NCBI GenBank assembly: GCA_964522485.1
Contig: CAZFUS010000008.1
Location: forward strand, 15,042 to 47,041
Direction: 5' to 3'
Source of the DNA: an uncultured Enterobacteriaceae bacterium
GTDB taxonomy: Bacteria > Pseudomonadota > Gammaproteobacteria > Methylohalomonadales > Methylohalomonadaceae
Length of the DNA stretch: 32,000 nucleotides
Both the position numbers and the translations under genes were made by a program. The notes under the pieces were generated by a model that made no database searches, had not been told where the DNA came from, and saw nothing but the letters and a program-made list of their open reading frames with translations. Positions within the stretch are counted from its first letter, which is position 1. Every line of letters starts with the position of its first letter. Shown one piece after another: positions 236 through 30,450 of this stretch.

Positions 236-1201
236 TCATTGTTCGAAATTGTTTCGCAGTTCATCAGCGATTTCAAACAGATCAACTACCACTCCATAAC
301 GAGCAATGCTGAATATGGAAGCCTCTGGATCCTTGTTGATGGCGATAATGTTTGGCACATGTTTCATACCGGCCATATGCTGAACAGAACCGGAAATACC
401 CATGGCTATGTAAACGTTGCAGTTGGCCACTGTTTTTCCTGACTGTCCCACCTGCCGTGATTTTGGCAGCCAGCCATTATCAGCAATAGGACGCGAACAG
501 CCCAGCGTGAACCCCATGATATCCGCAAGCTCCTGAAATTTTTCGACGTTATCCTCCTCGTCGATACCGCGGCCAATGGACAGCATGAATTCAGCCTGGC
601 TAATATCGACGTCGCCACCGCCTTCCGGCTCTATATATTCCAGATGCTGAGTATGCACTTCAGCCTGGGGCAGCTCAAAAGCCGTCATTTCGGCGTTACC
701 TTTGTCCTCGACCGGCTTGAAGACATTACCCCGCACCGTAAGCAATATCGTATCCCGGGCCGGAAAATCGAGTTCCATGTGAATTTTCTCCGCGTAAGCG
801 GCGCGGGTTGCCACGAGTTCGTCGTTTTCGTACCTGATGCCGAACACATCGGTGGCAAAACCGTAATTTCCCCGCATAGCGATTACGGGAGCGTAGCTCC
901 ATGCATCAACGCTGTGTGGCACCAGGACAACCGCCGGTTTGCGCTCACTGATGAGGGCACTGATAGCGGCTTCATAGGTGTCTACCTGAAACTCGTCTTC
1001 AGGGGTGGTGATCCTGATAATCTCATCCACTCCTTCCAGATTGAGCCGTTCCGAATATTTATCAGGGTCGCTGGCGAGCACTGTCACCATCAGTGGTTGA
1101 CTTTTTTCCGCCTTTAACTGCCTGGCTGCCGTAATAACTTCGAGACTGGCCGGCGTCAATTCACCCTGACGATGTTCCGATATCACAAGTATGCCGCTCA
1201 T
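236..1201 (-). CDS. etfA: Electron transfer flavoprotein alpha subunit (EtfA)
   Basis: The product is 322 aa from ATG 1199-1201 (MSGILVISEHRQGEL...). The C-terminal FAD-binding region (...YIAMGISGSVQHMAGMKHVPNIIAINKDPEASIF...) is typical of ETF alpha. The start lies 1 nt after the etfB stop. The 360-aa ORF-track form is an N-terminal extension that overlaps etfB. Confidence 0.9.
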   Translation of the reverse strand: MSGILVISEHRQGELTPASLEVITAARQLKAEKSQPLMVTVLASDPDKYSERLNLEGVDEIIRITTPEDEFQVDTYEAAISALISERKPAVVLVPHSVDAWSYAPVIAMRGNYGFATDVFGIRYENDELVATRAAYAEKIHMELDFPARDTILLTVRGNVFKPVEDKGNAEMTAFELPQAEVHTQHLEYIEPEGGGDVDISQAEFMLSIGRGIDEEDNVEKFQELADIMGFTLGCSRPIADNGWLPKSRQVGQSGKTVANCNVYIAMGISGSVQHMAGMKHVPNIIAINKDPEASIFSIARYGVVVDLFEIADELRNNFEQ

Positions 1202-1202
1202 T

Positions 1203-2003
1203 TTATGCCGCCCCCTGTAGTTCTTTAATGATTTCAGTGAGACGTGCAGCCTGTTCGGCCGGCGTCCCTTCAATGAACTCTGCCTGACCCTTTTCCGGCA
1301 TAACCATGCGCCTGACACGGGACAAAGAACCTTTCACACCGACATCATCATCCGTCAGACCAATGTCTTCATGCGACAAGACCTCGATCTCCTTGCTTTT
1401 TGCCTGTTTAATGCCACGCAAGGAGGCATAACGCGGATCGTTTATACCGAGTTGTATGGTCAGAACGGCCGGCAGATCGATGGACATCTTCTGTTCCAGA
1501 CCGCCTTCAAGTTCACGGTGTACCGTCGCCCTGGAATCACCCGGTTTCAGTTCCAGATGGTTAACCACGGCCGCATGCGGCCAGCCCAGTCCCGCTGCTA
1601 TATTCATCCCGGTCTGGGCAAATGCATGGTCAGAAGACAGTGTTCCCGCAAAGACAACGTCCGGCTGTTCACGCTCAATCACCTTGACCAGTATTCTGGC
1701 TATGGCGCTTGGATCCGAACCTTCTATGGCATCATCCCATATCCTTATACCGCGTTCGCCGCCTTTCGCCAGGCACCGGCGCAGGGCGTCATCAGCCTCT
1801 TCCGGCCCGACGGTTACAGGAACAACTTCGATATTTTCACCTTCATTGGCTTCCATGATCCGGAGCGCTTCCTCATAGGAATAGTCATCCCATTCATTCA
1901 GTTCATAATCCAGATAATCCGGGTCTACCCCCGTGCCATCCTCAAGAAGTTCAAAGTCTTCATCGAGTGCAGCTATCTGTTTGATCGGCACTAATATCTT
2001 CAT
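1203..2003 (-). CDS. etfB: Electron transfer flavoprotein beta subunit (EtfB)
   Basis: The 266-aa product starts MKILVPIKQ..., and its length and layout match the ETF beta family. It sits immediately upstream of etfA. TMADH is known to use ETF as its physiological electron acceptor. Confidence 0.9.
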   Translation of the reverse strand: MKILVPIKQIAALDEDFELLEDGTGVDPDYLDYELNEWDDYSYEEALRIMEANEGENIEVVPVTVGPEEADDALRRCLAKGGERGIRIWDDAIEGSDPSAIARILVKVIEREQPDVVFAGTLSSDHAFAQTGMNIAAGLGWPHAAVVNHLELKPGDSRATVHRELEGGLEQKMSIDLPAVLTIQLGINDPRYASLRGIKQAKSKEIEVLSHEDIGLTDDDVGVKGSLSRVRRMVMPEKGQAEFIEGTPAEQAARLTEIIKELQGAA

Positions 2004-2009: not shown

Positions 2010-3503
2010 TTACTCCGCTCTATTGGCTTTCATGTTTGAAGTTTCTGCTGATGTCATTTCAAGCGATTTACGAACCAGCATCTGGGTGGCAATAAATCGC
2101 ACCTGCGGCTCAGGATCATCAACCAGTCTGGTGTGTTCCGCCTCAGTAAGCACCGGATGCCTTGCCAGTATCGCCCGATTCAATGGATACGGGTCATCCA
2201 GCAGCATTTTCAGCACCACCAGTGGCGCCTGATTGTTCAGAATCACGGCGCGCCGGATATCCTTGTCGCTGTGTTCCGCTATTCTTTTCAGAATGCTCAG
2301 CGGCGTCGTCGGATTCTGGCCAATGCCGGACAGAATATCCGCGTCTTCCTCTTTCGCCAGTTCCAGGAGAATCGGCTCCGGCAAGTCGTCCCGGAATGCC
2401 ACCCCTGCCCGCACCCAGCTGTTGGGATCCCGGGCCAGCTCGTGCAACAACCCGGCCGGGCACGCCGGGTTGCGTGCCACAGCGCGCCTGACTTCGGCGG
2501 TTTCATCCAGTGCCAGCCGCCGGAGTATGTCTTCGGGCGTTGTGCGGTTCCGGGCCACCCAGCGCCGCACCCAGTGATCCTCGTCCTCTGACAGATGCTC
2601 GATCACGGCTGTTGTCAAGCCGGCCCGCTGGGCCTCGGAACGCCTGACCTGGCGCGAAGGATCATCGGACAGCGCCCCGACTTCCTCCGCCGGCAGCAGC
2701 AGATTGCGCACCGATGCCGCGCGCACCTGCGGCGCCGGGTCATTCAGCAGCCGCACAAGCCGCTCGATCTGTGCCGCCGGATTCGACGCCAGCATCCGCC
2801 GTACCAGTACCTCCTCATCCTTTTCAGCCATCTCCTGAATATCTGCTGGACAATGCTCATTGGCTGCCACCTCGCCACGCAGATACCTATCACCTCGGGC
2901 CCACAGATCGCGCAGCATGATGGCATCGGCATTTGGATGCTTGGCAATCTCCTTGAGCAACTCCAATGGCGCTTCAGCGACAATCTCCGCCAGAATCTCC
3001 CGGCCGGTGTTGGGGTTGCCGCACAGGGCTTTCTGTACCACCGCCGAACCGCGCCATTTCAGCCCTGCCAATAAATCCGCAGGCGCATTTCTGTGAGCGG
3101 CAACTGCCGCAGTGAGCGGTTCTGAACCGTTGTTGCTGACCAGTTCGCGCAGGGTTTCAAGCGGCGTCGCCGGGTGGCGTGCAAGTCGCGCCTTGAAATT
3201 CGGGTCAGCCGCTAAACGGGCCATTCTGGCCAGCACGGAGGCCGGCGTATAGGGTGCAGAGGAAAGCTGACGCCGGCGTTTACCGGTGGCAAACAGAAGA
3301 CTTTCCAGTTCACTGCGCCCGGCAGCATCCAGAAAAGGATGCAATGCCAGCCCAATGTAAATGTCATCCTGATCCACGGCCCGTTTCAGCAGTTCGTCAA
3401 GATACCGATTCCACTTGCCGCTGCCGGACCGTTGCCCGGAGTTACCGCTGATAGCCTGCATCACGCCCGTTACCCGGCTTTCAGACCTGTGCAGAATCTG
3501 CAT
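2010..3503 (-). CDS. Leucine-rich-repeat-variant (LRV) / HEAT-like repeat protein of unknown function
   Basis: A long ORF carries many degenerate ~24-30 aa repeats of the form xVRxxVAxNPxxPxxLLxxLAxDP. Examples are VRRAVARNPACPAGLLHELARDPNSWVRAGVA, QVRAASVRNLLLPAEEVGALSDDPSRQVRR and DIRRAVILNNQAPLVVLKMLLDDPYPLNRAILARHP. No Cys-cluster domain is present. The start is uncertain: TTG 3515, ATG 3503 (used here) or ATG 3461. None of these has a strong SD. Confidence 0.7.
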   Translation of the reverse strand: MQILHRSESRVTGVMQAISGNSGQRSGSGKWNRYLDELLKRAVDQDDIYIGLALHPFLDAAGRSELESLLFATGKRRRQLSSAPYTPASVLARMARLAADPNFKARLARHPATPLETLRELVSNNGSEPLTAAVAAHRNAPADLLAGLKWRGSAVVQKALCGNPNTGREILAEIVAEAPLELLKEIAKHPNADAIMLRDLWARGDRYLRGEVAANEHCPADIQEMAEKDEEVLVRRMLASNPAAQIERLVRLLNDPAPQVRAASVRNLLLPAEEVGALSDDPSRQVRRSEAQRAGLTTAVIEHLSEDEDHWVRRWVARNRTTPEDILRRLALDETAEVRRAVARNPACPAGLLHELARDPNSWVRAGVAFRDDLPEPILLELAKEEDADILSGIGQNPTTPLSILKRIAEHSDKDIRRAVILNNQAPLVVLKMLLDDPYPLNRAILARHPVLTEAEHTRLVDDPEPQVRFIATQMLVRKSLEMTSAETSNMKANRAE

Positions 3504-5628
3504 CAGTCCGGACAACTTTATCGAGTTCCATGCATTCCTCTACCAGTTCAATCAACTCACGGACCTTGATGTTCTTTTCGTTACCTGTTGACTTGACCGA
3601 ATCCTCGAACATGTTCATGCATTTGGGACAACTGACAACAAAAGTATCCAGGCCCTGAATTTCCGCCGCTTCTCGCATGCGGTTTTCCGAGGGTTTTTGC
3701 TTGTCCATGGGATCCGGGGTCCATATGCGGCCGCCTCCTGCCCCACAACAGAAAGAGTTGTCACGGGAACGTTTCATTTCAACAAGGTTGGCGCCCAGCA
3801 TGTGTATCGATTCGCGTGGTGCGTCATAGCCCTTGTTCATGCGCCCCAGATGGCAGGGATCATGAAAAGTTACGGTATTGTTGTTCAGGTTCTTCTTGAG
3901 TTTTATTTCGCCATTCGCAAGCATGTGTCGTATCAGCGTGCTGGCATGCTCGACATCATATTTACCGCCAAATTCCGGATATTCATTTTTTAACGTATTG
4001 AATGAATGCGGATCGGTTGTCACTATCCGCTTGAAATCGCATGACTCCAGCGTCTCGATATTCTCTTCTGCAAGGTGCTGGTACAAACCTTCCTCGCCCA
4101 CCCGGCGGACATCATTGCCGGCAGTCATCTCTGCTTCAAACAAAATACCAAAATCAACACCGGCAGAATGCAATATGCGTGCAAACGACTGCGACACCTT
4201 CTGATAGCGGGGGTCGAAAGAAGCAAAATCACCTACAAACCAGAGCACATCCACCGGCTCCTTGCGCGCATCTTTAATCTCAAAATCCAGTTTTTTGGTC
4301 CAGGCGGGACGCTTGCGTTTATTTTCGCCGAACGAATTGCCTTTCTTCTGTATATGCTGCAACGCAGTCTGGACCGCGGGTTCCATATCACCCTGTTCCA
4401 CCAGCTGGCGCCGCATCTCCACGATCATGGGTACGTGTTCGATGCCCACCGGACAGATTTCCACGCAGGCCGAGCAGGTCCGGCAGGCCCAGAGCGTTTC
4501 ACTGCGGATCTGATTGGGCCCGTCACCCAGTGCCGAAAGCGCCTCCGCTGCAGGCAGCGATCCGCCTTCCAGTTTGTCGGACGCCAGTTCGCGCAGAGAC
4601 AGCACCAGATCGCGCGGTGATAGCGGATAGCCGGTGGCATTGGCCGGACAGGCTTCATGACAGCGTCCGCATTTGGTGCAGGCATCAAGATGAAGCAGGT
4701 GCTTGCTGCTGAAGTCCGCGATGCTGCTATAACCGATTTTATCGCTCTCCAGATCCGCCATGGGCAGCCTGGAAGAAGGTTTCGGATCGCGCATCGACAG
4801 GGACGCCATGGCGGTGAATATATGCTTCACCTTGGTAAAGGGAATCAGGGCTATAAAAGCCAGGGCGAGAACGCCATGGAACCACCAGGTATAAAGACGC
4901 ACAGCCTCACCCGTCTCCGCCGACATGGACAGCCCCTGAAAAAGATAAGCCAGCAGCGTCCCGACCGGCGACCACCAGCGATAATCCCAGACGGTGGGAT
5001 CGTCCGCCAGCCATACCAGCCTGGCGGCCTCGAGTATATAACCTGTAATGGCAATAATAATCAGGGTCCATAAAAAGGCCCAGTCTTCCCGCCGGTAGAA
5101 GGTCCGGTCATAATCGGGGTCCTCCGGACTACGATCGGGGCGCTTGTAATCCAGTTTTGGTAGTGCGAGCCATTTCCGCCGGTACATCATGTACAGCAGG
5201 CCGGCGATCAGCGCCACCCCGGCAATATCCATCACGAGGGAGAACCATAAGTAGAAATCCCCGTACCAGAATGTGAATCCTAACAGCGGTTCGGTAATAT
5301 CATATTCAAGCGTAATGGTTGCTGTGCCAATGAACAGCAACACGAAGCCAAAGAAGATAAGCGCATGGGTATGACCGGCCGCCTTGTCACGACGCTTTAT
5401 CGGTCTGTGAGACAACAGGGCAGAAACCATGTCAACGATCCCGTTCCACAGATTTCTGATTCGTACAGGTTTTCCACGGCGATATTTCCTGATCTGGATG
5501 TAGCATCCGTATATAAAAACGGCTATGGCTAAAATGGCCACCACGTAAAACGACGCCAGCATCCAGCCAGGAAAGTCCTGGAACAATATGCGTGTAACGT
5601 TTTCAGGATCGTGTTGCGGATTGACCAT
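3481..5628 (-). CDS. Membrane-anchored heterodisulfide-reductase-like (Fe-S)-binding oxidoreductase (DgcB / EtfD-like), likely the ETF-oxidising quinone reductase
   Basis: The 715-aa product has a hydrophobic N-terminal ~270 aa with several predicted TM helices. It carries two ferredoxin-type motifs, CTKCGRCHEACP and CRTCSACVEICP. The C-terminal part has CCG-type cysteine-rich motifs (DPCHLGR, FCCGAGGG, VVSCPKC). It lies between tmd and etfBA. Confidence 0.8.
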   Translation of the reverse strand: MVNPQHDPENVTRILFQDFPGWMLASFYVVAILAIAVFIYGCYIQIRKYRRGKPVRIRNLWNGIVDMVSALLSHRPIKRRDKAAGHTHALIFFGFVLLFIGTATITLEYDITEPLLGFTFWYGDFYLWFSLVMDIAGVALIAGLLYMMYRRKWLALPKLDYKRPDRSPEDPDYDRTFYRREDWAFLWTLIIIAITGYILEAARLVWLADDPTVWDYRWWSPVGTLLAYLFQGLSMSAETGEAVRLYTWWFHGVLALAFIALIPFTKVKHIFTAMASLSMRDPKPSSRLPMADLESDKIGYSSIADFSSKHLLHLDACTKCGRCHEACPANATGYPLSPRDLVLSLRELASDKLEGGSLPAAEALSALGDGPNQIRSETLWACRTCSACVEICPVGIEHVPMIVEMRRQLVEQGDMEPAVQTALQHIQKKGNSFGENKRKRPAWTKKLDFEIKDARKEPVDVLWFVGDFASFDPRYQKVSQSFARILHSAGVDFGILFEAEMTAGNDVRRVGEEGLYQHLAEENIETLESCDFKRIVTTDPHSFNTLKNEYPEFGGKYDVEHASTLIRHMLANGEIKLKKNLNNNTVTFHDPCHLGRMNKGYDAPRESIHMLGANLVEMKRSRDNSFCCGAGGGRIWTPDPMDKQKPSENRMREAAEIQGLDTFVVSCPKCMNMFEDSVKSTGNEKNIKVRELIELVEECMELDKVVRTDADSAQV

Positions 5629-5761: not shown

Positions 5762-7969
<2,208 letters not shown>

Positions 7970-9952: not shown

Positions 9953-10071
9953 TGCCTGCTCCCGATATTTCAACTATATGCGCTTGATACCAAGACTTTT
10001 TCGGAAAAAGTCAAATAAAATTCAGGGCCCTATTTCAGGATTTTCAATCATGTACTCATGCCCCGAAGAGC

Positions 10072-10107: not shown

Positions 10108-10162
10108 ACTGATCAGCTGTTTATTTGCATGGCCTTCCGCTTACTTACTGAAAATTATGCAA

Positions 10163-19112: not shown

Positions 19113-19139
19113 AGGCCTCTTCCGCATGGAGTAAGGAAC

Positions 19140-19892: not shown

Positions 19893-19893
19893 C

Positions 19894-23190: not shown

Positions 23191-23262
23191 GATTACTGAC
23201 TGATTCCTCTCAAACCCGGCCACCATGCATGCGTATCGGCAACGAATACAGGCACAGCAGGA

Positions 23263-23896: not shown

Positions 23897-24286
23897 TCAA
23901 AATTTCGCATAGGCCTTTTTCAGATCCACCAGCGGATGATCCGGCGACATCTGGAACTTCACCAGCAGCTCACGGGCAATCATGTCACGGTCCTGCTGAT
24001 TGTCAGGCAATTTAATGTCCCCCGGCACCTGCACCCAGCCGTTGATATTCCGGTCGAAAACCGCGGGTTTGCCTTCCTCATAACCCATGTGAACGTCCTC
24101 CAACCAGTTCAGGTCCTGCCAGTCCATGATTTCCATGTATTTCTCGAGAAACGGGGTGACACGGTTCATATCCGGCACCAGATTCACATCATAGCGATAG
24201 CCAATATGCTGCCCGATTAATTTTTCACGTTCTGTATCGACACCTGTACTTGTAACGTAGTAATCAATGTCTTTTTCCTTACTCAT
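23897..24286 (-). CDS. Hypothetical acidic protein (129 aa) immediately downstream of mgsC
   Basis: The ORF starts 31 nt after the mgsC stop with an AGAGAG-type SD. It has no Cys and no motif that I recognise. Confidence 0.5.
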   Translation of the reverse strand: MSKEKDIDYYVTSTGVDTEREKLIGQHIGYRYDVNLVPDMNRVTPFLEKYMEIMDWQDLNWLEDVHMGYEEGKPAVFDRNINGWVQVPGDIKLPDNQQDRDMIARELLVKFQMSPDHPLVDLKKAYAKF

Positions 24287-24317: not shown

Positions 24318-25706
24318 TTAATAGCGGGTCATATCGGGGCGACCGACCGTGTGCTGTGAACCCGCCATCGGCACCTGTGCCATGGAAGACGCCTCCATAG
24401 TCAAGGCTGCCAAATCTTCCGGTTCCAGTGAATGCACGTTGGTTTTTGCACAAGCCCTGGCAAACAGCTGACACTCAATAGCAAGCGTATGCAGGAAATT
24501 ATAGACACGCTCCGCAGCCTCATCCGGATGCAGACGTTTGCGCAGCTGTGGATCCTGGGTGGTAACGCCGACCGGGCAGCGACCGGTATGGCAATGGTAA
24601 CAATAGCCTGCCTCGACCCCCATTTCCTTCGGAAAATCGGCTTCCGGAATATCCTTGTTGCAGTTCAGGGCAATGAGTGACGCATGGCCGATTGCTACCG
24701 CATCGGCACCCAGGGCAAGCGCCTTGGCCAGATCAGAGCCGTTACGAATGCCGCCCGCATAAATCAGGGAGATTTCCCCCGTTTTACCTACGTCATCAAG
24801 CGCCTTCCTGGCCTGACGTATGGCGGCAATACCAGGTACACCGGTATCTTCGGTGGCAAGGTGGGGGCCGGCACCGGTACCACCCTCCATACCGTCAATA
24901 TAAATACAGTCAGGATCACACTTGGCCGCCATACGGACGTCATCATAAACACGGGCCGCACCAAGTTTCAGCTGGATCGGGATCTCCCAATTGGTAGCTT
25001 CGCGTATTTCCTGAACCTTGAGAGCAAGATCGTCCGGACCGAGCCAGTCGGGATGGCGAGCCGGCGAACGCTGATCGATGCCTGCCGGCAGCGAACGCAT
25101 TTCAGCAACCTGATCGGTAACTTTCTGTCCCATGAGATGCCCGCCCATACCGACCTTGCAGCCCTGACCGATGAAGAACTCGATCGCATCAGCCAGGCGC
25201 GCATGATGCGGATTGAAGCCATAACGTGACTGGATCAGCTGATAAAACCATTTCTCAGAATAACGACGTTCATCCGGTATCATGCCTCCTTCACCGGAAC
25301 AGGTTGCCGTACCAGCCATCGTCGCACCACGGGCCAGGGCACACTTCGCCTCATAGCTCAGGGCGCCGAAGCTCATGCCGGTAATATACACCGGTATATC
25401 CAGCTCCAGCGGACGCTTGGCGCGCGGACCGAGGATCGTTTTTGTCTCACATTTTTCTCTATAACCCTCGATAACAAAGCGTGTCAAAGTACCAGGCAGA
25501 AAAGTCAGATCATCAAAATGCGGGATTTTCTTGAACAGGGAAAAGCCGCGCATCCGATACCGGCCAAGTTCAGCCTTGACGTGTATATCATCGATAACAC
25601 GCGGCTGGAAAATAAAACTGGAACCGAGAACATGACGGTTGCGCTCGGGTTTGGTTTCCGGCACTATTTCAGGTGCTGGTTCTGTTGCTGGATTTTGCTG
25701 TGACAT
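24318..25706 (-). CDS. mgsC: FMN-binding glutamate-synthase-family protein (GlxD / GltB FMN domain), N-methylglutamate synthase subunit C-like
   Basis: The product is about 462 aa. It has a GltS FMN-domain signature (MSFGALSYEAKCALARGA..., IDGMEGGTGAGP..., ISLIYAGGIRNGSDLAKALALGADAV). It follows the GATase and GXGXG genes. I prefer ATG 25706 over the ORF-track TTG 25715. Confidence 0.85.
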   Translation of the reverse strand: MSQQNPATEPAPEIVPETKPERNRHVLGSSFIFQPRVIDDIHVKAELGRYRMRGFSLFKKIPHFDDLTFLPGTLTRFVIEGYREKCETKTILGPRAKRPLELDIPVYITGMSFGALSYEAKCALARGATMAGTATCSGEGGMIPDERRYSEKWFYQLIQSRYGFNPHHARLADAIEFFIGQGCKVGMGGHLMGQKVTDQVAEMRSLPAGIDQRSPARHPDWLGPDDLALKVQEIREATNWEIPIQLKLGAARVYDDVRMAAKCDPDCIYIDGMEGGTGAGPHLATEDTGVPGIAAIRQARKALDDVGKTGEISLIYAGGIRNGSDLAKALALGADAVAIGHASLIALNCNKDIPEADFPKEMGVEAGYCYHCHTGRCPVGVTTQDPQLRKRLHPDEAAERVYNFLHTLAIECQLFARACAKTNVHSLEPEDLAALTMEASSMAQVPMAGSQHTVGRPDMTRY

Positions 25707-25763
25707 TTTATTCAAACCTCTCGTAAGACCTTTCTGGGCAACTCATGCGGGTACGCATACCGG

Positions 25764-26606
25764 TTAAAGAACCAGTTTCTTTTCGGTAGGCTCAAGATTG
25801 TCGTAATTCCAGAGTTTCTTGCCTGAAACAATCTTGCGCACATTTGCCACACCATTGGGCGCTTCCAGTCCGTATATTGAAAGCTTTTTCGTAAGCCACT
25901 GGATATCGATATCGGTCATCTCGCTTTCAACTGCATCAACACCCAGGCTTTCATACTTGCCGGCTATATAAATGGTGCCGTCATACATTGAATCGCCAAG
26001 GTTGGAACCTGCATCACCCAGAATGACCATCCTGCCGCGTTGCATCATAAAACCCGAATTCATACCGGTCCGGCCACCGATAATGATGGTGCCACCCTTC
26101 ATGTCAATTCCGGTACGGGAGCCGACGTCACCCTTGCATACCAGATCACCGCCCCGTATAGCCGCGCCAAAGGTTGAACCGGCATTTTTCTCTACCACTA
26201 CAGTGCCGGCCATCATGTTCTCGGCACATGACCAGCCAACACGTCCCTTGATGCGCACGTTCGGCCCATCGATCAATCCGCAGCCGAAATAGCCAAGGCT
26301 GCCGTCGAAAGTAAGATTCAGCCGGTTAAGAATGCAGACACCCATTGAATGTTTGGCCCCTGGATTCCTGATCGTTATGCTGCCGTAACCTTCCTTCATA
26401 AGCTCACGAAGCTTGATATTCACGTCCTTATTGCTCATGTCGGCAGCGTCGAACTCAGTTTCCTTGTTAAAATCGACTTCAAAAGCACCAGGGTAAGTAA
26501 AATTCTCCTCGGCTGCCGGTTTGAAGAATATCTGCTGTGTGCGTCCTGCCAGCTGCTCATCGTGCATTCCCATTGCATGGGAATCTCTGGATTCTAGCTG
26601 TGCCAT
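25764..26606 (-). CDS. mgsB: GXGXG-motif protein (GlxC / glutamate synthase alpha C-terminal domain-like), N-methylglutamate synthase subunit B-like
   Basis: The 280-aa product has repeated Gly-rich beta-helix motifs (GYFGCGLIDGPNVRIKGRVGWSCAENMMAGTVVV..., GDVGSRTGIDMKGGTIIIGG..., ILGDAGSNLGDSMYDGTIYIAG). It overlaps the mgsA stop by 13 nt. Confidence 0.85.
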   Translation of the reverse strand: MAQLESRDSHAMGMHDEQLAGRTQQIFFKPAAEENFTYPGAFEVDFNKETEFDAADMSNKDVNIKLRELMKEGYGSITIRNPGAKHSMGVCILNRLNLTFDGSLGYFGCGLIDGPNVRIKGRVGWSCAENMMAGTVVVEKNAGSTFGAAIRGGDLVCKGDVGSRTGIDMKGGTIIIGGRTGMNSGFMMQRGRMVILGDAGSNLGDSMYDGTIYIAGKYESLGVDAVESEMTDIDIQWLTKKLSIYGLEAPNGVANVRKIVSGKKLWNYDNLEPTEKKLVL

Positions 26607-27547
26607 ACTTTCACCGCTCCATCATAAGGATCATAGGTATCAATCTCATGGGGAAAGATACTTCTTATGGCAACCTCTTCGGATGCCAAGGCAATGAAGT
26701 CATCACTCTCATAGAGAACCATAGGTTTTGCAGCCATAGTGTCTTTCGCCATGCCCAGAGAATTGCTGGTCGCAACAAGATAGGTAAAAACGCCATCCAG
26801 ATCCGTTACCGAGTCATGCATCGCTTCTTCCAGCGTTTTTCCCTGATCGAGTTTGTCTGCAATGTAGACGGCTATCAGTTCGGAGTCGCAGTTGGAAGCA
26901 AAGCGATGTCCTTTACGCTCGAGGGCCCGGCGCTTGGTCCAGTAATTCGTCAACTGCCCATTGTGCACCACGGAAATATCACTGTACGGATATGCCCAGT
27001 AAGGATGGGCCGAACGGATATCAACATCAGATTCCGTGGCCATACGGGTATGCCCCATTGCATGCGTGCCCTGGAAGTCGCCCAGATCATATCCATCACT
27101 GACGGTCTTGGCATCACCGAGGTCCTTGATTAATTCAAGTGCACGTCCCATGGAGAGAATTTCCACTCCCTCCAGATCCTCGAGATAGTCGGCGAGCTTT
27201 CCGAGATCACCGTCATATTCAATAGTATACCTAAAGGCATATTCTTTAGGTTGATCAATGTTTACTATTTTACCGTCCAGCTCTTTTATACGTGTCTCAA
27301 CGTCTTCCTTACGCTGTATGATCAGATCATGAATGCCCCATGCGCCCTTTTTGCTATGCGTCGACTCAACATCCGCACCCTCGGCTACTTTCAGGCGTAT
27401 GATATACTGCTTCGGATTTCCCTGACCATAAAGTGCATAGCCGGTTGAGTCTGGCCCTCTATGTTTTAATGCCTGTAGCATTAAGGCCATTTCCTTACCA
27501 ATACCAGCACTTTTGCCTTTATGAATAAGTCCTGCTATTCCACACAT
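26594..27547 (-). CDS. mgsA: Class II (Ntn) glutamine amidotransferase-family protein (GlxB-like), N-methylglutamate synthase subunit A-like
   Basis: The 317-aa product begins MCGIAG, with the catalytic Cys directly after Met. GHTRMATES and VVHNGQLTNY motifs are present. A GGAGGA SD lies upstream. Confidence 0.85.
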   Translation of the reverse strand: MCGIAGLIHKGKSAGIGKEMALMLQALKHRGPDSTGYALYGQGNPKQYIIRLKVAEGADVESTHSKKGAWGIHDLIIQRKEDVETRIKELDGKIVNIDQPKEYAFRYTIEYDGDLGKLADYLEDLEGVEILSMGRALELIKDLGDAKTVSDGYDLGDFQGTHAMGHTRMATESDVDIRSAHPYWAYPYSDISVVHNGQLTNYWTKRRALERKGHRFASNCDSELIAVYIADKLDQGKTLEEAMHDSVTDLDGVFTYLVATSNSLGMAKDTMAAKPMVLYESDDFIALASEEVAIRSIFPHEIDTYDPYDGAVKVWHS

Positions 27548-27564: not shown

Positions 27565-29034
27565 TTACGGCAGGCAATCCATGTATTGCTCTAGATCCCA
27601 TTCCGTTACCGTTGCCAGAAAGGTTTCCCATTCGTCACGTTTATAGTCATCAAAAACCTTGTACAGTTCTCCCGGCAGCGCTGATTTGACAGTTTCATCC
27701 TGTTCCAGAGCATCGAGCGCTTCTCCAAGTGAAATCGGGATCCTGGTATATTTTTCCTTAACCTCTTCCATTACATCATAAATATTACGCTGCTCAGGCT
27801 CTCCCGGATCCGCCTTCTCATTAATGCCTTCGCTCATCGTTTTCAGAAGGCCAGCACCGAGCAGATAAGGATTGTTGGCAGAATCAACCGTCTTATATTC
27901 GAAGCGTCCCGGCGCTGAATTGCGAACACCGGCGGTGCGGTTTTGATACCCCCAGTTGGCGTATACCGGCGCCCAGTAACCGGTATCAAGAAGACGGCGA
28001 TAGGAATTAACATTGGAACAGCCCAGAACAGTCAGGCCGCGTAAATGCTTCAGAATACCGCCCAGAGCATATTTACCGATTTTCCCCGGTTCACGCGGAT
28101 TATCACCTTCCGGCATAAAAGTATTATCACCCTCTAAGGCATAGGTGAAAACAGCCTCCATGCCTGGCAGATCAGTGTTGCCCAGCTGCTTTACCTCGGT
28201 TTTGCCACCGCGCCAAAGGGAGATATTGGTATGACATGCAGAAGCGGAAACATGCATGAACGGCTTTGACATGAAACAGGCAATAAGATTGTATTCACGT
28301 GCCACCTGGGCACAGATCTGGCGATAGGTCGTCAACCGATCAGAGTTCCGCAAAATATCATCAAATGTGAAATTCAGTTCCAGTTGTCCAGGCGCATCTT
28401 CATGATCACCCTGAATAATGTCCAGCCCCATCTGCCGGGAATATTCGATAACCTGCATATAAACCGGCCGTAGCGATTCGAACTGATCGATGTGATAGCA
28501 GAACGGCTTGCTATAACCACCGGCAGGTTTGCCATCTTCACCCCGCTTCAGCCACATCATTTCCGGCTCGGTACCTGCACGTAGTTGCAGACCATGCTCA
28601 TCCTGGAATTCCTGGTGTATGCGGCGCAGATTGCCGCGGCAGTCGGAGTCAAGAAATGCACCGGGATTGTCCGGATGCTCGCGGCCTCGAAACAATGTAC
28701 AGAAAACACGTGCCACGCGCTTATCCCAGGGCAGCTGAACAAAGGTTTCAGGCTCCGGAATACCAACCAGCTCCCAGGCTTCGGGGCCATAACCAAGATA
28801 GTGACCATGCCTGTCTATAAACAGATTGGCTGTCGAGCCATAAACAAGCTGAAAACCCTTTTCGGCAAAGCGCTCCCAGTGATCGGCTGGAGCACCCTTG
28901 CCCATAATGCGTCCGGTTACGGATACAAACTGAAAATAGATGTAATTAACGCCCAGAGTATTAATTTTCTTGCGAACTTCCTGGACCTTTTTATCCCGAC
29001 CAGGCGTATTGATAAAGTTCTCATAGTCAGTCAT
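27565..29034 (-). CDS. gmaS: Glutamine-synthetase-family ligase (GlnT/type III-like), likely gamma-glutamylmethylamide synthetase
   Basis: The 489-aa product has a GS catalytic-domain layout (...TEPEMMW..., GDHEDAPGQLELNF, MSKPF...SASACHTNISLW, NSYRRL, NRTAGVR). It lies directly upstream of mgsABC, the arrangement known for NMG-pathway clusters. An AGGGGA SD lies upstream. Confidence 0.8.
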   Translation of the reverse strand: MTDYENFINTPGRDKKVQEVRKKINTLGVNYIYFQFVSVTGRIMGKGAPADHWERFAEKGFQLVYGSTANLFIDRHGHYLGYGPEAWELVGIPEPETFVQLPWDKRVARVFCTLFRGREHPDNPGAFLDSDCRGNLRRIHQEFQDEHGLQLRAGTEPEMMWLKRGEDGKPAGGYSKPFCYHIDQFESLRPVYMQVIEYSRQMGLDIIQGDHEDAPGQLELNFTFDDILRNSDRLTTYRQICAQVAREYNLIACFMSKPFMHVSASACHTNISLWRGGKTEVKQLGNTDLPGMEAVFTYALEGDNTFMPEGDNPREPGKIGKYALGGILKHLRGLTVLGCSNVNSYRRLLDTGYWAPVYANWGYQNRTAGVRNSAPGRFEYKTVDSANNPYLLGAGLLKTMSEGINEKADPGEPEQRNIYDVMEEVKEKYTRIPISLGEALDALEQDETVKSALPGELYKVFDDYKRDEWETFLATVTEWDLEQYMDCLP

Positions 29035-29106
29035 GTTTATTCCCCTAGACTTGATAGTTTCGGTGTTGATTTACAATTCATGATTTCAGAGGGTTCAATA
29101 TATATC

Positions 29107-30450
29107 CTAGCTCCAAGGGAAGGGACTATGAGACGTGGGGTGCAGTCTCCCTTCCTTGTAACGCGAGAAGCGAAATGGTTCGAGCAACTCACTGGTCTTG
29201 CCCAATACTTCCTGAGCCACAAGTTCACCAACACCAATCATTTTGTAACCATGATTGGAATCGGCAATGATGTAACAGTTTTCGCGAAAAACATCGAACA
29301 ATGGGAAATTGTCCGGCGAGAAAGCTCCTATGCCGCCTGATGGCTCTTTCTTGTATGAAGGAAACTTGTCTTCAAACCGCTTCTGACAATGTGCCAGAGC
29401 CGAGCACCACATATTGGCGAAGTCTTCACCGACAATATAATCCGGTGACTCGGTTCCATAGGGATCAATTCGCACTTTATCCGGATCCGTTTTGACTTCA
29501 AACGGAGCGGATCCACCCTGGATACCACCGAAATAGGGGTCCGGCTTATAATAAATTCCCCATATTTTATCTGTAACAAGAGAGCCATCCTTGACGGAAT
29601 ACAAAGGTGCGTCCGTATCAACATGCACTACAGGAGGCAACTTTCCGTCATTAGTTCTTTGTAAGTCAGGATCCACACCCAGTGTGCCTTCCTGCAGCGA
29701 CCAGAAGACCCACATGGGAACATCTTTGTGAATTTTTCCCTGCAGATCCTTGACCTCAATCTTCTTGGGAAGCTCCAGCATATCCCATATCGGTTTGATC
29801 CATGGGCCTGCACCGACGATGACGTAATCACATTCAATAACACCTTTATCGGTTTCCACTGCTTTAACGGTCTTGCTGCCATCTGCAGATTTAAAGCCGG
29901 TGACCTTGATACCCGTTTCAATGTTTACGCCTTCATTACGCGCCTTATCCGCCAGGCCATGCATGCTTTTAATGTTATTGGCATAACCTCCACGTTTTTC
30001 ATGCAGCACTGATGTTATGTTCTTTGCCTGCCAGTCGTCGAATATGTTACGCATGTATTTCATTGACTCTTTTTCGCCTTCAATGAAAACAGACTCATAT
30101 CCAATTTCCTGCTGCTGTTTGGCAATGCTGGCCACATCTTCACGCATTACCTCGCAGCTAATCTGCAGATAGCCAACGGAATGATAAGTGTATGCCTCCG
30201 GATCCCTTTCCCAGACTCCTACACTATGCGCCATAAGCTTGCGCATTGCCGGTTGATAATAATTATTTCTTACTACTCCGCAAGCTATGCCGGAAGCGCC
30301 TGCACCAATATCCTTTTTGTCAACAACCAGAATATCCTTGCCGTCACCTAGCTTGCGCTCCTTTAACTGCCTGGCAAGATGATACGCTGTGCTGAGCCCA
30401 TGCACACCTGCGCCGATAACCAGGTACTTTGTATGACTGGGAAGCCCCAT
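29107..30450 (-). CDS. FAD-dependent oxidoreductase (DAO family; monomeric SoxB-like amine oxidase/dehydrogenase)
   Basis: The 447-aa product has the N-terminal motif KYLVIGAGVHGLSTAYHLA. GASGIACGVVRNNY parallels the GGGNTARNTAVIRSNY motif of the soxB product in this window. It is the first gene of the gmaS-mgs operon. Confidence 0.8.
   Translation of the reverse strand: MGLPSHTKYLVIGAGVHGLSTAYHLARQLKERKLGDGKDILVVDKKDIGAGASGIACGVVRNNYYQPAMRKLMAHSVGVWERDPEAYTYHSVGYLQISCEVMREDVASIAKQQQEIGYESVFIEGEKESMKYMRNIFDDWQAKNITSVLHEKRGGYANNIKSMHGLADKARNEGVNIETGIKVTGFKSADGSKTVKAVETDKGVIECDYVIVGAGPWIKPIWDMLELPKKIEVKDLQGKIHKDVPMWVFWSLQEGTLGVDPDLQRTNDGKLPPVVHVDTDAPLYSVKDGSLVTDKIWGIYYKPDPYFGGIQGGSAPFEVKTDPDKVRIDPYGTESPDYIVGEDFANMWCSALAHCQKRFEDKFPSYKKEPSGGIGAFSPDNFPLFDVFRENCYIIADSNHGYKMIGVGELVAQEVLGKTSELLEPFRFSRYKEGRLHPTSHSPFPWS

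What the first reader, a model, noticed from the sequence alone, without database searches (positions are those of the whole stretch)
236..30450. Self-contained methylated-amine island: TMADH with its own ETF chain next to a full N-methylglutamate pathway
TMADH, EtfAB and an ETF-oxidising membrane Fe-S protein lie back to back with soxBDAG-type genes. About 7 kb further on is a gmaS-mgsABC operon. Together these match the known parts list for TMA oxidation (TMADH to ETF) and for the N-methylglutamate route of methylamine oxidation (GmaS, NMG synthase MgsABC, NMG dehydrogenase MgdABCD). I saw no mau-type methylamine dehydrogenase genes, no flavin TMA monooxygenase or TMAO demethylase, and no classical ETF-QO. 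Having the dehydrogenase route for TMA physically fused to the NMG route, with a transporter, a GFA protein and folE2, is an unusually complete arrangement. It also implies that the sarcosine-oxidase-type annotation is probably wrong for the soxBDAG set.
Basis: partly seen in the sequence, partly recalled or inferred. Interest (0 to 1): 0.6.

Follow-up and report, generated by a model that had tools for sequence, protein, structure and literature searches.

The report
Trimethylamine island with variant glutamate module
This is a co-regulated gene island for burning trimethylamine in a salt-loving methylotroph; most of it is a known kind, but its supposed gmaS-mgsABC operon is a divergent, unstudied module that may be a missing route for dimethylamine breakdown.

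Summary
The genes are there as described. TMADH is genuine, with every catalytic and TMA-specific residue kept. Its ETF is the W3A1 type. The membrane Fe-S protein is an EtfD/DgcB homologue, and the genome has no ETF-QO. The soxBDAG set falls in a gamma-type clade that usually sits beside canonical gmaS, not in the TIGR sarcosine-oxidase family. NMG dehydrogenase is therefore the better call.

The "gmaS-mgsABC" operon is not the canonical one. The canonical xre-mgsABC-gmaS lies on another contig. dmmABC and mauAB are also elsewhere. The window instead carries a divergent module: dao-GS'-mgsA'B'C'-o129-o207-gfa.

The island is not unusual. tmd-etfD-LRV-etfBA recurs in about 30 genomes, often with NMG genes. 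Four operons here share a 35-bp element found nowhere else in the genome.

The new lead concerns the divergent module. It co-occurs with DMA-producing enzymes (TMADH or Tdm) in 20 of 22 genomes. It is anticorrelated with both known DMA enzymes, Dmm and DMADH. It is therefore a candidate third DMA route. This rests on comparative genomics only.

The parts
236..1201 (-). etfA, electron transfer flavoprotein alpha subunit (W3A1 type)
   Evidence: Best PDB match is the Methylophilus W3A1 ETF alpha chain 1O94_D at 377 bits; the next ETF scores 152. The real start is MSGILV at residue 40 of the listed ORF.
1203..2003 (-). etfB, ETF beta subunit
   Evidence: NCBIfam ETF beta hits. Conserved next to etfA in about 30 tmd loci.
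2010..3503 (-). LRV/HEAT-repeat protein, conserved between etfD and etfB. Role unknown. Start uncertain.
   Evidence: Pfam LRV, LRV_2 and HEAT. Orthologues sit in the same position in about 25 tmd loci.
3481..5628 (-). EtfD/DgcB-type membrane Fe-S ETF:quinone oxidoreductase
   Evidence: 257.6 bits to 9OJN, M. smegmatis EtfD (PMC13083937). Five hydrophobic segments, two CX2CX2CX3C motifs and CCG domains. No ETF-QO was found in the genome.
5762..7966 (-). tmd, trimethylamine dehydrogenase
   Evidence: 1292 bits over the full length to TMADH 1DJN. Cys30, Tyr60, Ser74, Trp105, Trp264, Asp267, Trp355, Cys345/348/351/364 and Tyr442 are all kept.
8070..8819 (-). FNR-like flavin reductase-type protein, with weak DmmA-like similarity
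   Evidence: NCBIfam BenC/FNR-type hits. Pfam DmmA-like_N at E=0.0015.
8816..9973 (-). GcvT-family, DmmD-like folate-binding protein. Inferred to trap formaldehyde from TMADH as methylene-THF.
   Evidence: GcvT at 218.7 bits. 36.5% identical to Acinetobacter DmmD. Adjacent to tmd in about 20 loci.
10072..10198 (.). Divergent promoter region holding two copies of the composite element TACTCCATAGGTGGTAT-N6-(T/G)G(T/G)GC(A/G)ATTGAC. One copy faces the gcvT/tmd operon and the other faces soxB.
10361..11602 (+). soxB-type beta subunit, read as mgdA of NMG dehydrogenase
   Evidence: TIGR01373 scores 486 against a cut-off of 529. 69% identical to the copy in the Acinetobacter tmm-tdm-dmm-gmaS-mgsABC island. 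Gamma-type clade, 100/100 support.
11621..11920 (+). soxD-type delta subunit (mgdB)
   Evidence: TIGR01374 scores 66.8 against a cut-off of 116.5.
11917..14865 (+). soxA-type alpha subunit with a C-terminal GcvT/THF domain (mgdC)
   Evidence: TIGR01372 scores 862.7 against a cut-off of 1164. GcvT hit at residues 605-977.
14870..15583 (+). soxG-type gamma subunit (mgdD)
   Evidence: Weak TIGR01375 hit and Pfam GCV_T. Start taken at MSENLAQ.
15682..15693 (+). Third exact copy of the 12-mer TGTGCAATTGAC, upstream of the transporter operon. The 5' half of the composite element is degenerate here.
15859..20601 (+). HAAT (Liv/Urt-type) ABC transporter: binding protein, two permeases and two ATPases. 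Candidate methylated-amine importer.
   Evidence: The same five genes lie next to tmd in alpha- and gammaproteobacterial loci L018, L025, L036, L020, L080 and L082.
20650..21411 (+). TPR protein following the transporter
   Evidence: Pfam TPR_12. Conserved after the ATPases in L020, L061 and L082.
21522..22316 (+). HutG-type N-formylglutamate deformylase
   Evidence: TIGR02017 scores 336.3 against a cut-off of 278.75. Also next to gfa in M. lacus.
22777..23226 (-). GFA-family protein (glutathione-dependent formaldehyde-activating enzyme family), last gene of the variant module
   Evidence: Pfam GFA at 75 bits. Same position in M. lacus and G254.
23263..23886 (-). o207, unknown protein of the variant module
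   Evidence: No family hit. Orthologues at 43-69% identity in L059, L073, L074, L076 and L077.
23897..24286 (-). o129, unknown and highly conserved small protein of the variant module
   Evidence: 79% mean column identity over 8 genomes. No family and no fold match.
24318..25715 (-). mgsC', FMN/GltB-domain subunit of the variant NMG-synthase-like enzyme
   Evidence: Pfam Glu_synthase. 52.5% identical to canonical MgsC.
25764..26606 (-). mgsB', GXGXG subunit
   Evidence: Pfam GXGXG. 41% identical to canonical.
26594..27547 (-). mgsA', class-II amidotransferase subunit with an N-terminal MCGI motif
   Evidence: 32% identical to canonical.
27565..29034 (-). GS', a divergent GmaS-like gamma-glutamyl-amine ligase
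   Evidence: TIGR03105 scores 271.8 against a cut-off of 469.6. GmaS-type pocket residues are kept, and the GS Asp50' and Glu327 positions are replaced by Val and Trp. Orthologues in 22 of 401 genomes.
29107..30450 (-). dao, DAO-family FAD oxidoreductase and first gene of the variant module
   Evidence: Pfam DAO. Best PDB hit is only 53.7 bits. Orthologues in 19 of 21 GS' genomes checked.
30585..30619 (-). Composite regulatory element upstream of dao
30805..31644 (+). folE2, GTP cyclohydrolase IB (folate supply), divergent from dao
   Evidence: NF010200 scores 293.4 against a cut-off of 215. Also next to dao or tmd in L058, L077 and L005.

Best explanation
The window is one co-regulated trimethylamine (TMA) catabolic island of a Methylohalomonas species.

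Shown by homology and conserved residues: TMA is probably imported by the HAAT ABC transporter. TMADH oxidises it to dimethylamine (DMA) plus formaldehyde. Electrons pass from TMADH to a W3A1-type ETF, then to an EtfD/DgcB-type membrane Fe-S/haem protein, and on to quinone. The genome has no ETF-QO.

Inferred: the GcvT-like protein traps the formaldehyde on tetrahydrofolate, and folE2 supports folate supply.

Inferred from clade and gene neighbourhood (about 0.75): soxBDAG is the gamma-type N-methylglutamate dehydrogenase (MgdABCD). It is the only such set left in this genome.

The operon read as gmaS-mgsABC is a divergent module, dao-GS'-mgsA'B'C'-o129-o207-gfa. My committed reading (about 0.5) is that this module takes over DMA, the product of TMADH. 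GS' would gamma-glutamylate the amine. Mgs' would transfer it onto the glutamate alpha-nitrogen. The DAO flavoprotein would remove one methyl group as free formaldehyde, which the GFA-family protein handles. The resulting N-methylglutamate would go to MgdABCD. The order of these steps and the exact DAO substrate are not shown.

Four transcription units share a private 35-bp element. It is probably bound by the NarL-type response regulator encoded just upstream of the window.
For: TMADH:
- 1292 bits over the full length to 1DJN.
- The TMA-specific triad Tyr60/Ser74/Trp105 and all cofactor residues are kept. DMADH-type Gln/Thr/Phe paralogues occur only in Methylophilaceae loci.

Electron chain:
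- ETF alpha scores 377 bits to the W3A1 ETF.
- The EtfD homologue scores 257.6 bits to 9OJN, with 5 TM segments, two 4Fe-4S motifs and CCG domains.
- No ETF-QO in a 97% complete genome.

sox set:
- All four subunits score below the TIGR cut-offs.
- About 16 of 28 gamma-type SoxB copies lie within 25 kb of a canonical gmaS.
- 69% identity to the copy in an Acinetobacter tmm-tdm-dmm-gmaS-mgsABC island. Tree.
- The canonical mgdABC next to mgsABC-gmaS on C88 is reduced to an mgdD remnant.

Regulon:
- The composite element lies upstream of all four units.
- The 12-mer occurs 3 times in 2.68 Mb, all in this window.
- A histidine kinase and a NarL-type response regulator are encoded just upstream.

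Variant module:
- GS' keeps the GmaS pocket but is 28-30% identical to GmaS.
- 19 of 22 GS' genomes also keep a canonical gmaS.
- All 7 TMADH genomes in a sample of about 400 Gammaproteobacteria have GS'.
- 13 of the 15 others have Tdm, often adjacent to GS'.
- 17 of 22 lack DmmB.
- Among 30 TMADH genomes, 12 of 15 with GS' lack both DmmB and a DMADH-like paralogue. Among those without GS', 12-13 of 15 have one of them. Fisher p=0.003, not corrected for phylogeny.
- G254 is a complete 1.85-Mb genome with the whole island but no Dmm, no DMADH and no canonical mgsA.
- Solved GmaS accepts DMA in vitro (PMC7948447).
- RNA-library contigs of a 97-99% identical relative lie on sox, sbp, gfa, mgs', GS' and dao.
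Against: - There is no biochemical or genetic evidence for any part of the variant module, and no precedent for gamma-glutamyl-dimethylamide or N,N-dimethylglutamate as pathway intermediates.
- GS' keeps the same amine-pocket residues as GmaS, so monomethylamine remains a plausible substrate.
- This genome, M. lacus, G015 and G296 carry DmmABC as well as the module.
- In G254, G174 and G336, Mgs' is the only NMG-synthase-like enzyme, so it probably handles gamma-glutamylmethylamide too.
- DAO also occurs without GS', next to a canonical NMG cluster, in G368 and G213.
- sox copies linked to variant and to canonical modules intermix in the tree.
- The co-occurrence statistics are not phylogenetically corrected, and many of the genomes are MAGs.
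- No experimentally characterised Mgd or TSOX sequence could be placed in the tree.
Confidence: 0.5

Rival explanations
1. The divergent module is simply a second, isofunctional N-methylglutamate route for monomethylamine (GS' acting as GmaS, Mgs' as NMG synthase) under TMA-specific control. In this genome DMA would be demethylated by DmmABC on contig C18. DAO would have an accessory role.
For: - GS' keeps Lys30', Gln175, Asp177, Glu179, Glu186, Asn188 and Trp300 of GmaS.
- DmmABC is present in G000, M. lacus, G015 and G296.
- Mgs' is the only NMG-synthase-like enzyme in G254, G174 and G336.
- sox copies next to variant and canonical modules are not separate clades.
Against: - 19 of 22 carriers keep a canonical gmaS as well, which argues against simple replacement.
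- 17 of 22 carriers lack DmmB, although 20 of 22 make DMA through TMADH or Tdm.
- The module is anticorrelated with Dmm and DMADH among TMADH genomes.
- dmm on C18 does not carry the island's private regulatory element.
Confidence: 0.3
2. soxBDAG is a true sarcosine oxidase/dehydrogenase. It would serve glycine betaine, dimethylglycine and sarcosine catabolism, possibly in addition to N-methylglutamate.
For: - The genome encodes dgcAB with its own etfAB, a GbdR-like regulator, sdaA and a DmdA-like methyltransferase on C18.
- It has no other soxB-type gene except dao.
- The beta subunit still scores 379 bits to TSOX 2GAG_B, and the His aligned with the covalent-FMN site is kept.
Against: - All four subunits fall below the TIGR sarcosine-oxidase family cut-offs.
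- The clade is separated from the TIGR-type clade with 100/100 support, and its members sit next to gmaS/mgsABC or tmd.
- It shares a private operator with tmd and the GS' operon, not with the C18 betaine genes.
Confidence: 0.12
3. The translationally coupled GcvT-like/FNR-like pair at the head of the tmd operon is the DMA-demethylating enzyme, and the variant module acts only from monomethylamine onward.
For: - The pair heads the tmd operon.
- The GcvT-like protein is DmmD-like and the FNR-like protein has a weak DmmA-like_N hit.
- GcvT-like genes flank tmd in about 20 loci.
Against: - There is no catalytic DmmB (haem-PAS, PF11927) partner in the window.
- DmmD is dispensable for Dmm activity and is thought to trap formaldehyde (PMC5520151).
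- GcvT-like genes also flank tmd in genomes that do have Dmm or DMADH, such as L012 and L014.
- The FNR-like partner is often absent.
Confidence: 0.08

Closest known systems
TMADH-ETF system of Methylophilus methylotrophus W3A1 (PDB 1DJN, 1O94)
   Same: Full-length orthologue of TMADH with Cys30, the 4Fe-4S cysteines, the aromatic bowl and the TMA-specific Tyr60/Ser74/Trp105. The ETF alpha subunit is closest to the W3A1 ETF.
   Different: Here the operon also encodes the ETF oxidase (EtfD-type), an LRV-repeat protein, and a GcvT-like/FNR-like pair. Unlike Methylophilaceae loci, there is no adjacent DMADH paralogue.
EtfD of Mycobacterium smegmatis (9OJN) and DgcB of Pseudomonas aeruginosa
   Same: Same architecture: five TM helices, two 4Fe-4S domains and two CCG domains. 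Encoded next to ETF and to an OYE-type Fe-S flavoprotein, as in dgcAB-etfBA (PMC13083937). The genome's own dgcB-like protein is 36% identical.
   Different: 715 aa, without the long disordered C-terminus of mycobacterial EtfD. It serves an amine dehydrogenase, not beta-oxidation. Haem ligands and cluster D1 cysteines were not checked.
N-methylglutamate pathway (GmaS, MgsABC, MgdABCD) of Methyloversatilis universalis FAM5, Methylobacterium extorquens and Methylocella silvestris
   Same: Same parts list and same domain architecture: a GS-like ligase lacking the ammonium residues, a GATase-II/GXGXG/FMN trio, and four Sox-like subunits with a THF domain.
   Different: The canonical ligase and synthase of this genome are on contig C88. 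The window's GS' and MgsA' are only 28-32% identical to canonical proteins and come with DAO, o129, o207 and GFA. The sox set belongs to a gamma-type clade distinct from alphaproteobacterial Mgd.
Heterotetrameric sarcosine oxidase (TSOX; PDB 2GAG, 1X31)
   Same: Beta-delta-alpha-gamma gene order. The beta subunit scores 379 bits to 2GAG_B. The alpha subunit has the GcvT-type THF domain.
   Different: Below all four TIGR family cut-offs. Separate clade. Genomic context is methylated amines, not glyA-purU/sarcosine.
Dimethylamine monooxygenase DmmDABC and dimethylamine dehydrogenase DMADH
   Same: They do the step (DMA to monomethylamine plus formaldehyde) that the island needs after TMADH. The GcvT-like protein resembles DmmD.
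   Different: Neither DmmB nor a DMADH-type (Gln60/Thr74/Phe105) paralogue is in the window. DmmABC is on C18, outside the island's regulon. Across genomes the variant module tends to occur where both are missing.

Membership tests
Trimethylamine dehydrogenase (EC 1.5.8.2) | Full-length similarity to the characterised W3A1 enzyme (about 730 aa: OYE barrel plus two ADP-binding-type domains) | tested here: met
   1292 bits, residues 5-732 against 1-727 of 1DJN_A. Pfam Oxidored_FMN plus OYE-like second domain.
Trimethylamine dehydrogenase (EC 1.5.8.2) | Cys30 (6-S-cysteinyl FMN) and 4Fe-4S ligands Cys345/348/351/364 | tested here: met
   All conserved. The roles of these residues come from my knowledge of the Scrutton-lab literature.
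Trimethylamine dehydrogenase (EC 1.5.8.2) | TMA-type substrate residues Tyr60/Ser74/Trp105, Trp264 and Trp355 (DMADH has Gln/Thr/Phe at the first three) | tested here: met
   The window has Y/S/W. 61-62% identical paralogues with Q/T/F were seen only in L006 and L028.
Trimethylamine dehydrogenase (EC 1.5.8.2) | Catalytic activity on TMA with ETF as acceptor | not testable with these tools
   Needs an enzyme assay.
EtfD/DgcB-type membrane ETF:quinone oxidoreductase | N-terminal five-helix membrane domain, two 4Fe-4S ferredoxin motifs and two CCG domains; homology to solved EtfD | tested here: met
   257.6 bits to 9OJN_A.
EtfD/DgcB-type membrane ETF:quinone oxidoreductase | Haem b histidine ligands and a quinone site | not tested
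   No residue-level alignment to 9OJN was made.
N-methylglutamate dehydrogenase MgdABCD | Four genes in beta-delta-alpha-gamma order, with a THF (GcvT) domain in alpha | tested here: met
N-methylglutamate dehydrogenase MgdABCD | Orthology with copies that sit in NMG gene clusters | tested here: met
   About 16 of 28 same-clade copies lie within 25 kb of a canonical gmaS. Acinetobacter island at 69% identity. Tree.
N-methylglutamate dehydrogenase MgdABCD | Clustering with a genetically or biochemically proven Mgd (FAM5, PA1/DM4, BL2) | tested here: inconclusive
   No referenced sequence of a proven Mgd could be fetched. Context-defined alphaproteobacterial Mgd (Rhizobium, Paracoccus) fall in the other, TIGR-type clade.
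Heterotetrameric sarcosine oxidase (TIGR01372-01375) | Scores above the curated family cut-offs | tested here: not met
   Scores against cut-offs: 486.2 vs 529.45; 66.8 vs 116.5; 862.7 vs 1164; 21.7 vs 143.95.
GmaS, gamma-glutamylmethylamide synthetase (TIGR03105) | Score above the curated cut-off, or close similarity to solved GmaS | tested here: not met
   271.8 bits against 469.6. About 173-175 bits to 7CQL and 9QUR, no better than to ordinary GS. The C88 protein scores 649 bits, and 605 bits to 7CQL.
GmaS, gamma-glutamylmethylamide synthetase (TIGR03105) | Lacks GS Asp50' and the Glu327 flap residue; has GmaS pocket residues Lys30', Gln175, Asp177, Glu179, Glu186, Asn188 and Trp300 | tested here: met
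   Val and Trp stand at the two GS positions, and all the pocket residues listed are kept. Differences are Tyr174Ile, Trp189Phe and a 10-residue insertion (numbering from PMC7948447).
N-methylglutamate synthase MgsABC | Three subunits: class-II amidotransferase with N-terminal Cys, GXGXG, and FMN GltB domain | tested here: met
   (MCGI N-terminus).
N-methylglutamate synthase MgsABC | Orthology to canonical MgsABC | tested here: not met
   32, 41 and 52% identity to canonical proteins, while the C88 set is 57, 61 and 72.5% identical. The window set is a paralogous lineage, conserved at 62-94% among carriers.
Dimethylamine monooxygenase DmmDABC | Catalytic DmmB (PF11927) with DmmA and DmmC | tested here: not met
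   Absent from the window. Present on C18.

The most novel reading that the evidence does not exclude
dao-GS'-mgsA'B'C'-o129-o207(-gfa) is a third, glutamate-mediated route for dimethylamine oxidation. In this reading it replaces dimethylamine monooxygenase and dimethylamine dehydrogenase downstream of both DMA-producing enzymes (TMADH and TMAO demethylase). It would explain how bacteria that carry tmd or tdm but lack dmm close the methylated-amine pathway, the "DMA bottleneck" of Lidbury et al. 2017.
Probability: 0.45. Interest if true: 0.85.

Novelty: new variant of a known kind. Interest (0 to 1): 0.62.

Why it matters
The TMADH/ETF/EtfD core and the Mgd-type dehydrogenase are ordinary members of known systems. 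The correction that matters for annotation is this: "sarcosine oxidase" and "glutamine synthetase" labels in this clade hide methylated-amine enzymes.

The wider point is the divergent module. At least 2957 database proteins match GS' at E<=1e-120, and all are named only "glutamine synthetase". The module sits beside either of the two unrelated DMA-producing enzymes. It tends to occur in genomes that lack both known DMA-consuming enzymes.

DMA degradation is a recognised genetic gap in marine methylated-amine cycling, with links to aerosol-forming amines. If the module fills that gap, gene-based budgets of DMA turnover would change. It would also add a new ATP-dependent, glutamate-carried demethylation chemistry that can be tested in a cultured strain, Methylohalomonas lacus HMT 1.

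Tried and rejected
- I assumed at first that the organism might be an anaerobe, because of the Hdr-like Fe-S protein. I rejected this. The relatives are Methylohalomonas, and the protein is an EtfD/DgcB homologue found in aerobes.
- I took the second Paracoccus ferrooxidans sox set as a stand-in for true TSOX. The tree shows it is nearly identical to the Paracoccus aminovorans copy in a tmm-tdm-dmm island, so it is not a clean TSOX reference. No PDB TSOX or proven Mgd sequence could be put in the tree, because those sequences have no reference here.
- o129: the AlphaFold model is only moderate (pLDDT 65.5) and Foldseek against the PDB gave nothing at E<=0.001.
- o207: no Pfam, NCBIfam or Atlas lead. 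Two Atlas calls failed because the service was busy.
- The Atlas and a 5.8-billion-protein search gave only generic "glutamine synthetase" names for GS'. A similar search gave only "sarcosine oxidase" or "FAD-dependent oxidoreductase" names for SoxB.
- Literature searches found nothing linking N-formylglutamate to the NMG pathway, nothing on gamma-glutamyl-dimethylamide or N,N-dimethylglutamate as metabolites of amine catabolism, and no paper on Methylohalomonas amine genes.
- I considered that a missing second mgdABCD next to the C88 cluster was an assembly gap. The C88 head has no mgdC homology, only the last 100 or so codons of mgdD, so loss is more likely. A misassembly cannot be excluded.
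- I considered direct oxidation of the amide N-methyl of a gamma-glutamyl amide by DAO (the PuuB analogy). I ranked it below oxidation of a tertiary amine on chemical grounds (my inference).

Full report

On the minus strand, 9973 to 236, lie:
- a GcvT-like gene;
- an FNR-like gene;
- tmd;
- a 715-aa membrane Fe-S protein;
- an LRV/HEAT-repeat protein;
- etfB and etfA.

On the plus strand, from 10361, lie:
- soxB, soxD, soxA and soxG;
- a five-gene HAAT ABC transporter;
- a TPR protein;
- a HutG-type deformylase.

On the minus strand, 30450 to 22777, lie:
- a DAO-family flavoprotein;
- a GS-like protein;
- a class-II amidotransferase;
- a GXGXG protein;
- a GltB FMN-domain protein;
- two unknown ORFs (o129, o207);
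- a GFA-family protein.

folE2 follows, divergently. Some listed ORF starts are too long. Homology and in-frame ATGs put etfA at 236-1201, soxG at 14870-15583 and the second ATPase at 19894-20601.

**The organism.** The window is contig C8:15042-47041 of a 2.68-Mb, 161-contig genome, 97% complete and 56% G+C. The same-genus genome G210 has a contig of exactly the length of the Methylohalomonas lacus HMT 1 record found with TMADH. The organism is therefore a Methylohalomonas species. Near-identical DNA occurs in soil and rhizosphere metagenomes.

**TMADH and its electron chain.**
- The 734-aa protein aligns end to end with W3A1 TMADH (1292 bits).
- It keeps Cys30, the four Fe-S cysteines, Trp264, Trp355, Asp267 and Tyr442. 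It also keeps the Tyr60/Ser74/Trp105 triad that distinguishes TMA-type from DMA-type enzymes.
- A survey of about 40 homologues found the Gln/Thr/Phe (DMADH) signature only in 61-62% identical paralogues beside tmd in two Methylophilaceae loci. The residue roles are from my knowledge of the TMADH literature; this survey agrees with them.
- The genome has no second TMADH-family protein closer than 29% identity.
- EtfA is far closer to the W3A1 ETF (377 bits) than to any other solved ETF (152 bits or less).
- The membrane protein matches M. smegmatis EtfD (9OJN, 257.6 bits). It has five hydrophobic segments, two CX2CX2CX3C motifs and CCG domains. This is the architecture shown to wire ETF to quinone, and it is shared with DgcB (PMC13083937).
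- No ETF-QO domain is found in the genome.
- A second, only 28-36% identical dgcA-dgcB-etfAB set sits on contig C18.

**How common the arrangement is.** tblastn of the window's proteins on 41 TMADH loci shows tmd-etfD-(LRV)-etfB-etfA in about 30 genomes of Gamma-, Beta- and Alphaproteobacteria. A GcvT-like gene is often adjacent, and so is the same ABC transporter. Sox-type and NMG-type genes are adjacent in L004, L011, L012, L014, L031, L038, L043 and L029. L012 carries xre-soxBDA-gmaS-mgsABC-tmd-etfD-etfBA-dmmABCD, which is a fuller island than this one. Genome announcements already note tmd, dmd and NMG genes together (PMC6256518). The "unusually complete" claim does not hold.

**soxBDAG.**
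- All four products score below the curated TIGR sarcosine-oxidase cut-offs.
- In plasmids and in about 400 sampled Gammaproteobacteria, SoxB homologues split into two groups. One is 51-87% identical to the window protein and is named "FAD-dependent oxidoreductase" by PGAP. The other is 40-47% identical and is of the TIGR type.
- Comparing coordinates with canonical gmaS hits, about 16 of 28 copies of the first group lie within 25 kb of a gmaS that scores above cut-off.
- The best plasmid match (69%) sits in an Acinetobacter island: tdm, tmm, dmmABCD, purU, folD, sox, amt, gmaS, mgsABC.
- An ML tree separates the two groups with 100/100 support and puts the window copy in the first.
- Alphaproteobacterial Mgd defined by context (Rhizobium next to glnT-glxBCD; Paracoccus aminovorans next to tmm-tdm-dmm) fall in the TIGR-type group. 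So "Mgd" is not one clade. I could not place a proven Mgd or a proven TSOX in the tree.
- M. lacus has a second, 62% identical set in a canonical dmmABC-mgdABCD-xre-mgsABC-gmaS cluster.
- In this genome that cluster (contig C88) retains only the last 100 or so codons of mgdD. The window's set is therefore the sole candidate NMG dehydrogenase.
- The sarcosine-oxidase rival keeps some weight, because the genome has dgcAB and betaine-type genes on C18.

**The "gmaS-mgsABC" operon is a divergent paralogue.**
- The GS-like protein scores 271.8 bits on TIGR03105 (cut-off 469.6). It is no closer to solved GmaS than to ordinary GS.
- The true GmaS of this genome is on C88: 649 bits on TIGR03105 and 605 bits to RhGmaS 7CQL. 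It follows xre-mgsABC.
- The window's MgsA', MgsB' and MgsC' are 32, 41 and 52% identical to canonical proteins. The C88 set is 57, 61 and 72.5% identical.
- An alignment mapped onto RhGmaS numbering shows that GS' lacks the GS Asp50' and Glu327 residues (Val and Trp instead). It keeps Lys30', Gln175, Asp177, Glu179, Glu186, Asn188, Arg312 and Arg317. Its changes are Tyr174Ile, Trp189Phe and a 10-residue insertion (PMC7948447). It is therefore an amine ligase of the GmaS type.
- MgsA' starts with MCGI, so the catalytic Cys is present.

**The module is conserved.** dao-GS'-mgsA'-mgsB'-mgsC'-o129-o207(-gfa) recurs in the same order in M. lacus, G296, G254, G336, G015, L043 and others. In G062 and G260 it is inserted inside a sox operon, right after a canonical gmaS. 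o129 is 79% conserved across eight genomes, but neither it nor o207 gave any family or fold lead.

**One regulon.** A 35-bp composite element, TACTCCATAGGTGGTAT-N6-TGTGCAATTGAC, lies upstream of the gcvT/tmd operon, soxB and dao. A copy with a degenerate 5' half lies upstream of the transporter. The exact 12-mer occurs three times in the whole genome, all in this window. The composite element is found nowhere else, and in particular not at the C88 NMG cluster or the C18 dmm genes. The first half resembles an inverted pair of NarL-type heptamers with a 2-bp spacer; this is my reading. A HisKA_3 kinase and a NarL/LuxR response regulator are encoded 3 kb upstream of the window. In a soil metatranscriptome, contigs 97-99% identical to the window lie on soxB, soxG, the binding-protein gene, gfa, o129/mgsC', mgsA', GS' and dao. 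Their depth is uneven, unlike the flat DNA run. This is weak evidence of transcription in a close relative.

**What the module may do.**
- GS' orthologues (56-92% identical) occur in 22 of 401 sampled Gammaproteobacteria.
- 19 of the 22 also have a canonical gmaS, so GS' is an addition and not a replacement.
- All seven genomes with a TMADH orthologue have GS'.
- Of the other fifteen, thirteen have TMAO demethylase. It is directly beside GS' in G064, G262, G319, G264 and G152, and within 8-17 kb in G211, G260, G062 and G174.
- Thus 20 of 22 carriers make DMA by one of two unrelated enzymes, yet 17 of 22 lack DmmB.
- In 30 further TMADH genomes, 12 of 15 with GS' have neither DmmB nor a 62-66% DMADH-like paralogue. 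Among those without GS', 12-13 of 15 have one of them. Fisher p=0.003, uncorrected for relatedness.
- G254, a complete 1.85-Mb chromosome, carries the whole island (module, gfa, etfAB, LRV, etfD, tmd, GcvT-like, transporter, TPR, sox, canonical gmaS). It has no Dmm, no DMADH and no canonical mgsA.
- DAO orthologues accompany GS' in 19 of 21 carriers checked. They also occur with a canonical NMG cluster in G368 and G213.
- Solved GmaS accepts DMA in vitro (PMC7948447).

My proposal follows, and it is inferred, not shown. GS' ligates DMA to glutamate. Mgs' moves the amine to the alpha-nitrogen. DAO removes one methyl group as free formaldehyde, which the GFA-family protein handles. MgdABCD then finishes the pathway.

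**Counter-evidence.** The GmaS-like pocket is unchanged at most positions. Dmm coexists with the module in four carriers, including this genome. Mgs' is the only synthase in three genomes. sox copies of variant and canonical clusters intermix in the tree. I put the DMA reading at about 0.45-0.5 and the isofunctional reading at about 0.3.

**Known or new.** The island as a TMA-to-NMG unit is a new member of a known kind. The module is a new variant: I found no paper or annotation that describes it. Its possible role bears on the reported absence of dmmDABC from abundant marine bacteria (PMC5520151).

Noticed in passing
Own genome contig C18 (L049:944-13062): A glycine-betaine/dimethylglycine-type cluster: etfB, etfA, a dgcB-like 642-aa Fe-S membrane protein, a dgcA-like 684-aa OYE flavoprotein, an MTHFR-like protein, a DmdA-like GcvT-family protein, L-serine ammonia-lyase and GbdR-like regulators. 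It is a second ETF system, parallel to the TMADH one.
   Followed up: partly
Own genome contig C18 (L050:1988-11166): dmmA, dmmC and dmmB (PF11927) with a GcvT-like gene, a PAS protein, a sigma-54 activator and folD. This dimethylamine monooxygenase is encoded outside the island and lacks its regulatory element.
   Followed up: partly
Own genome contig C88 (L048:1-7208): A canonical xre-mgsABC-gmaS cluster preceded by only a C-terminal remnant of mgdD (1124-1429). The first 1.1 kb has no mgdC homology, so the canonical mgdABC appears to have been lost or misassembled.
   Followed up: yes
Own genome contig C103:784-3646: mauA (methylamine dehydrogenase light chain, 270.9 bits, above cut-off) and a mauB-like heavy chain (323 bits, below cut-off). 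The genome may also oxidise methylamine directly.
   Followed up: partly
window:21522-22316: A HutG-type N-formylglutamate deformylase scoring above its equivalog cut-off sits in the transporter unit of the regulon. It is conserved next to gfa in M. lacus. This hints that N-formylglutamate could be an intermediate (over-oxidation of the N-methyl group). No literature link was found.
   Followed up: partly
window:2010-3503 and about 25 related loci: An LRV/HEAT-repeat protein is conserved between etfD and etfB across Gamma- and Alphaproteobacteria (31-88% identity). Its role in the TMADH-ETF-EtfD chain is unknown.
   Followed up: partly
L006:4559 and L028:5049: In Methylobacillus and Methylophilaceae loci, a 61-62% identical paralogue with Gln60/Thr74/Phe105 (DMADH signature) and Phe442 lies next to tmd. 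This is a tandem dmd-tmd arrangement, absent from the window's lineage.
   Followed up: yes
L079:8092 (G351:C14): One of two TMADH copies in genome G351 has Asn in place of the Fe-S ligand Cys348. It may be a degenerate or altered enzyme.
   Followed up: no
Own genome contig C8:9793-14975 (L051), just upstream of the window: A HisKA_3 histidine kinase, a NarL/LuxR response regulator, a PAS-GGDEF-EAL protein and a Gcw_chp outer-membrane-type protein precede etfA. The Acinetobacter methylated-amine island also starts with a kinase, a regulator and a PAS protein.
   Followed up: partly
L064 and L072 (G260, G062): In two small (1.9-2.0 Mb) gammaproteobacterial genomes the variant module is inserted inside the sox operon: gmaS-soxB-dao-GS'-mgsA'B'C'-o129-soxD-soxA-soxG, with tdm 8-10 kb away.
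   Followed up: partly
window:15859-20601: The HAAT-type ABC transporter is a conserved neighbour of tmd in Hyphomicrobiaceae, Methyloceanibacter and several Gammaproteobacteria. Its binding-protein gene has the highest depth in the RNA library, which fits a TMA or methylated-amine importer.
   Followed up: partly
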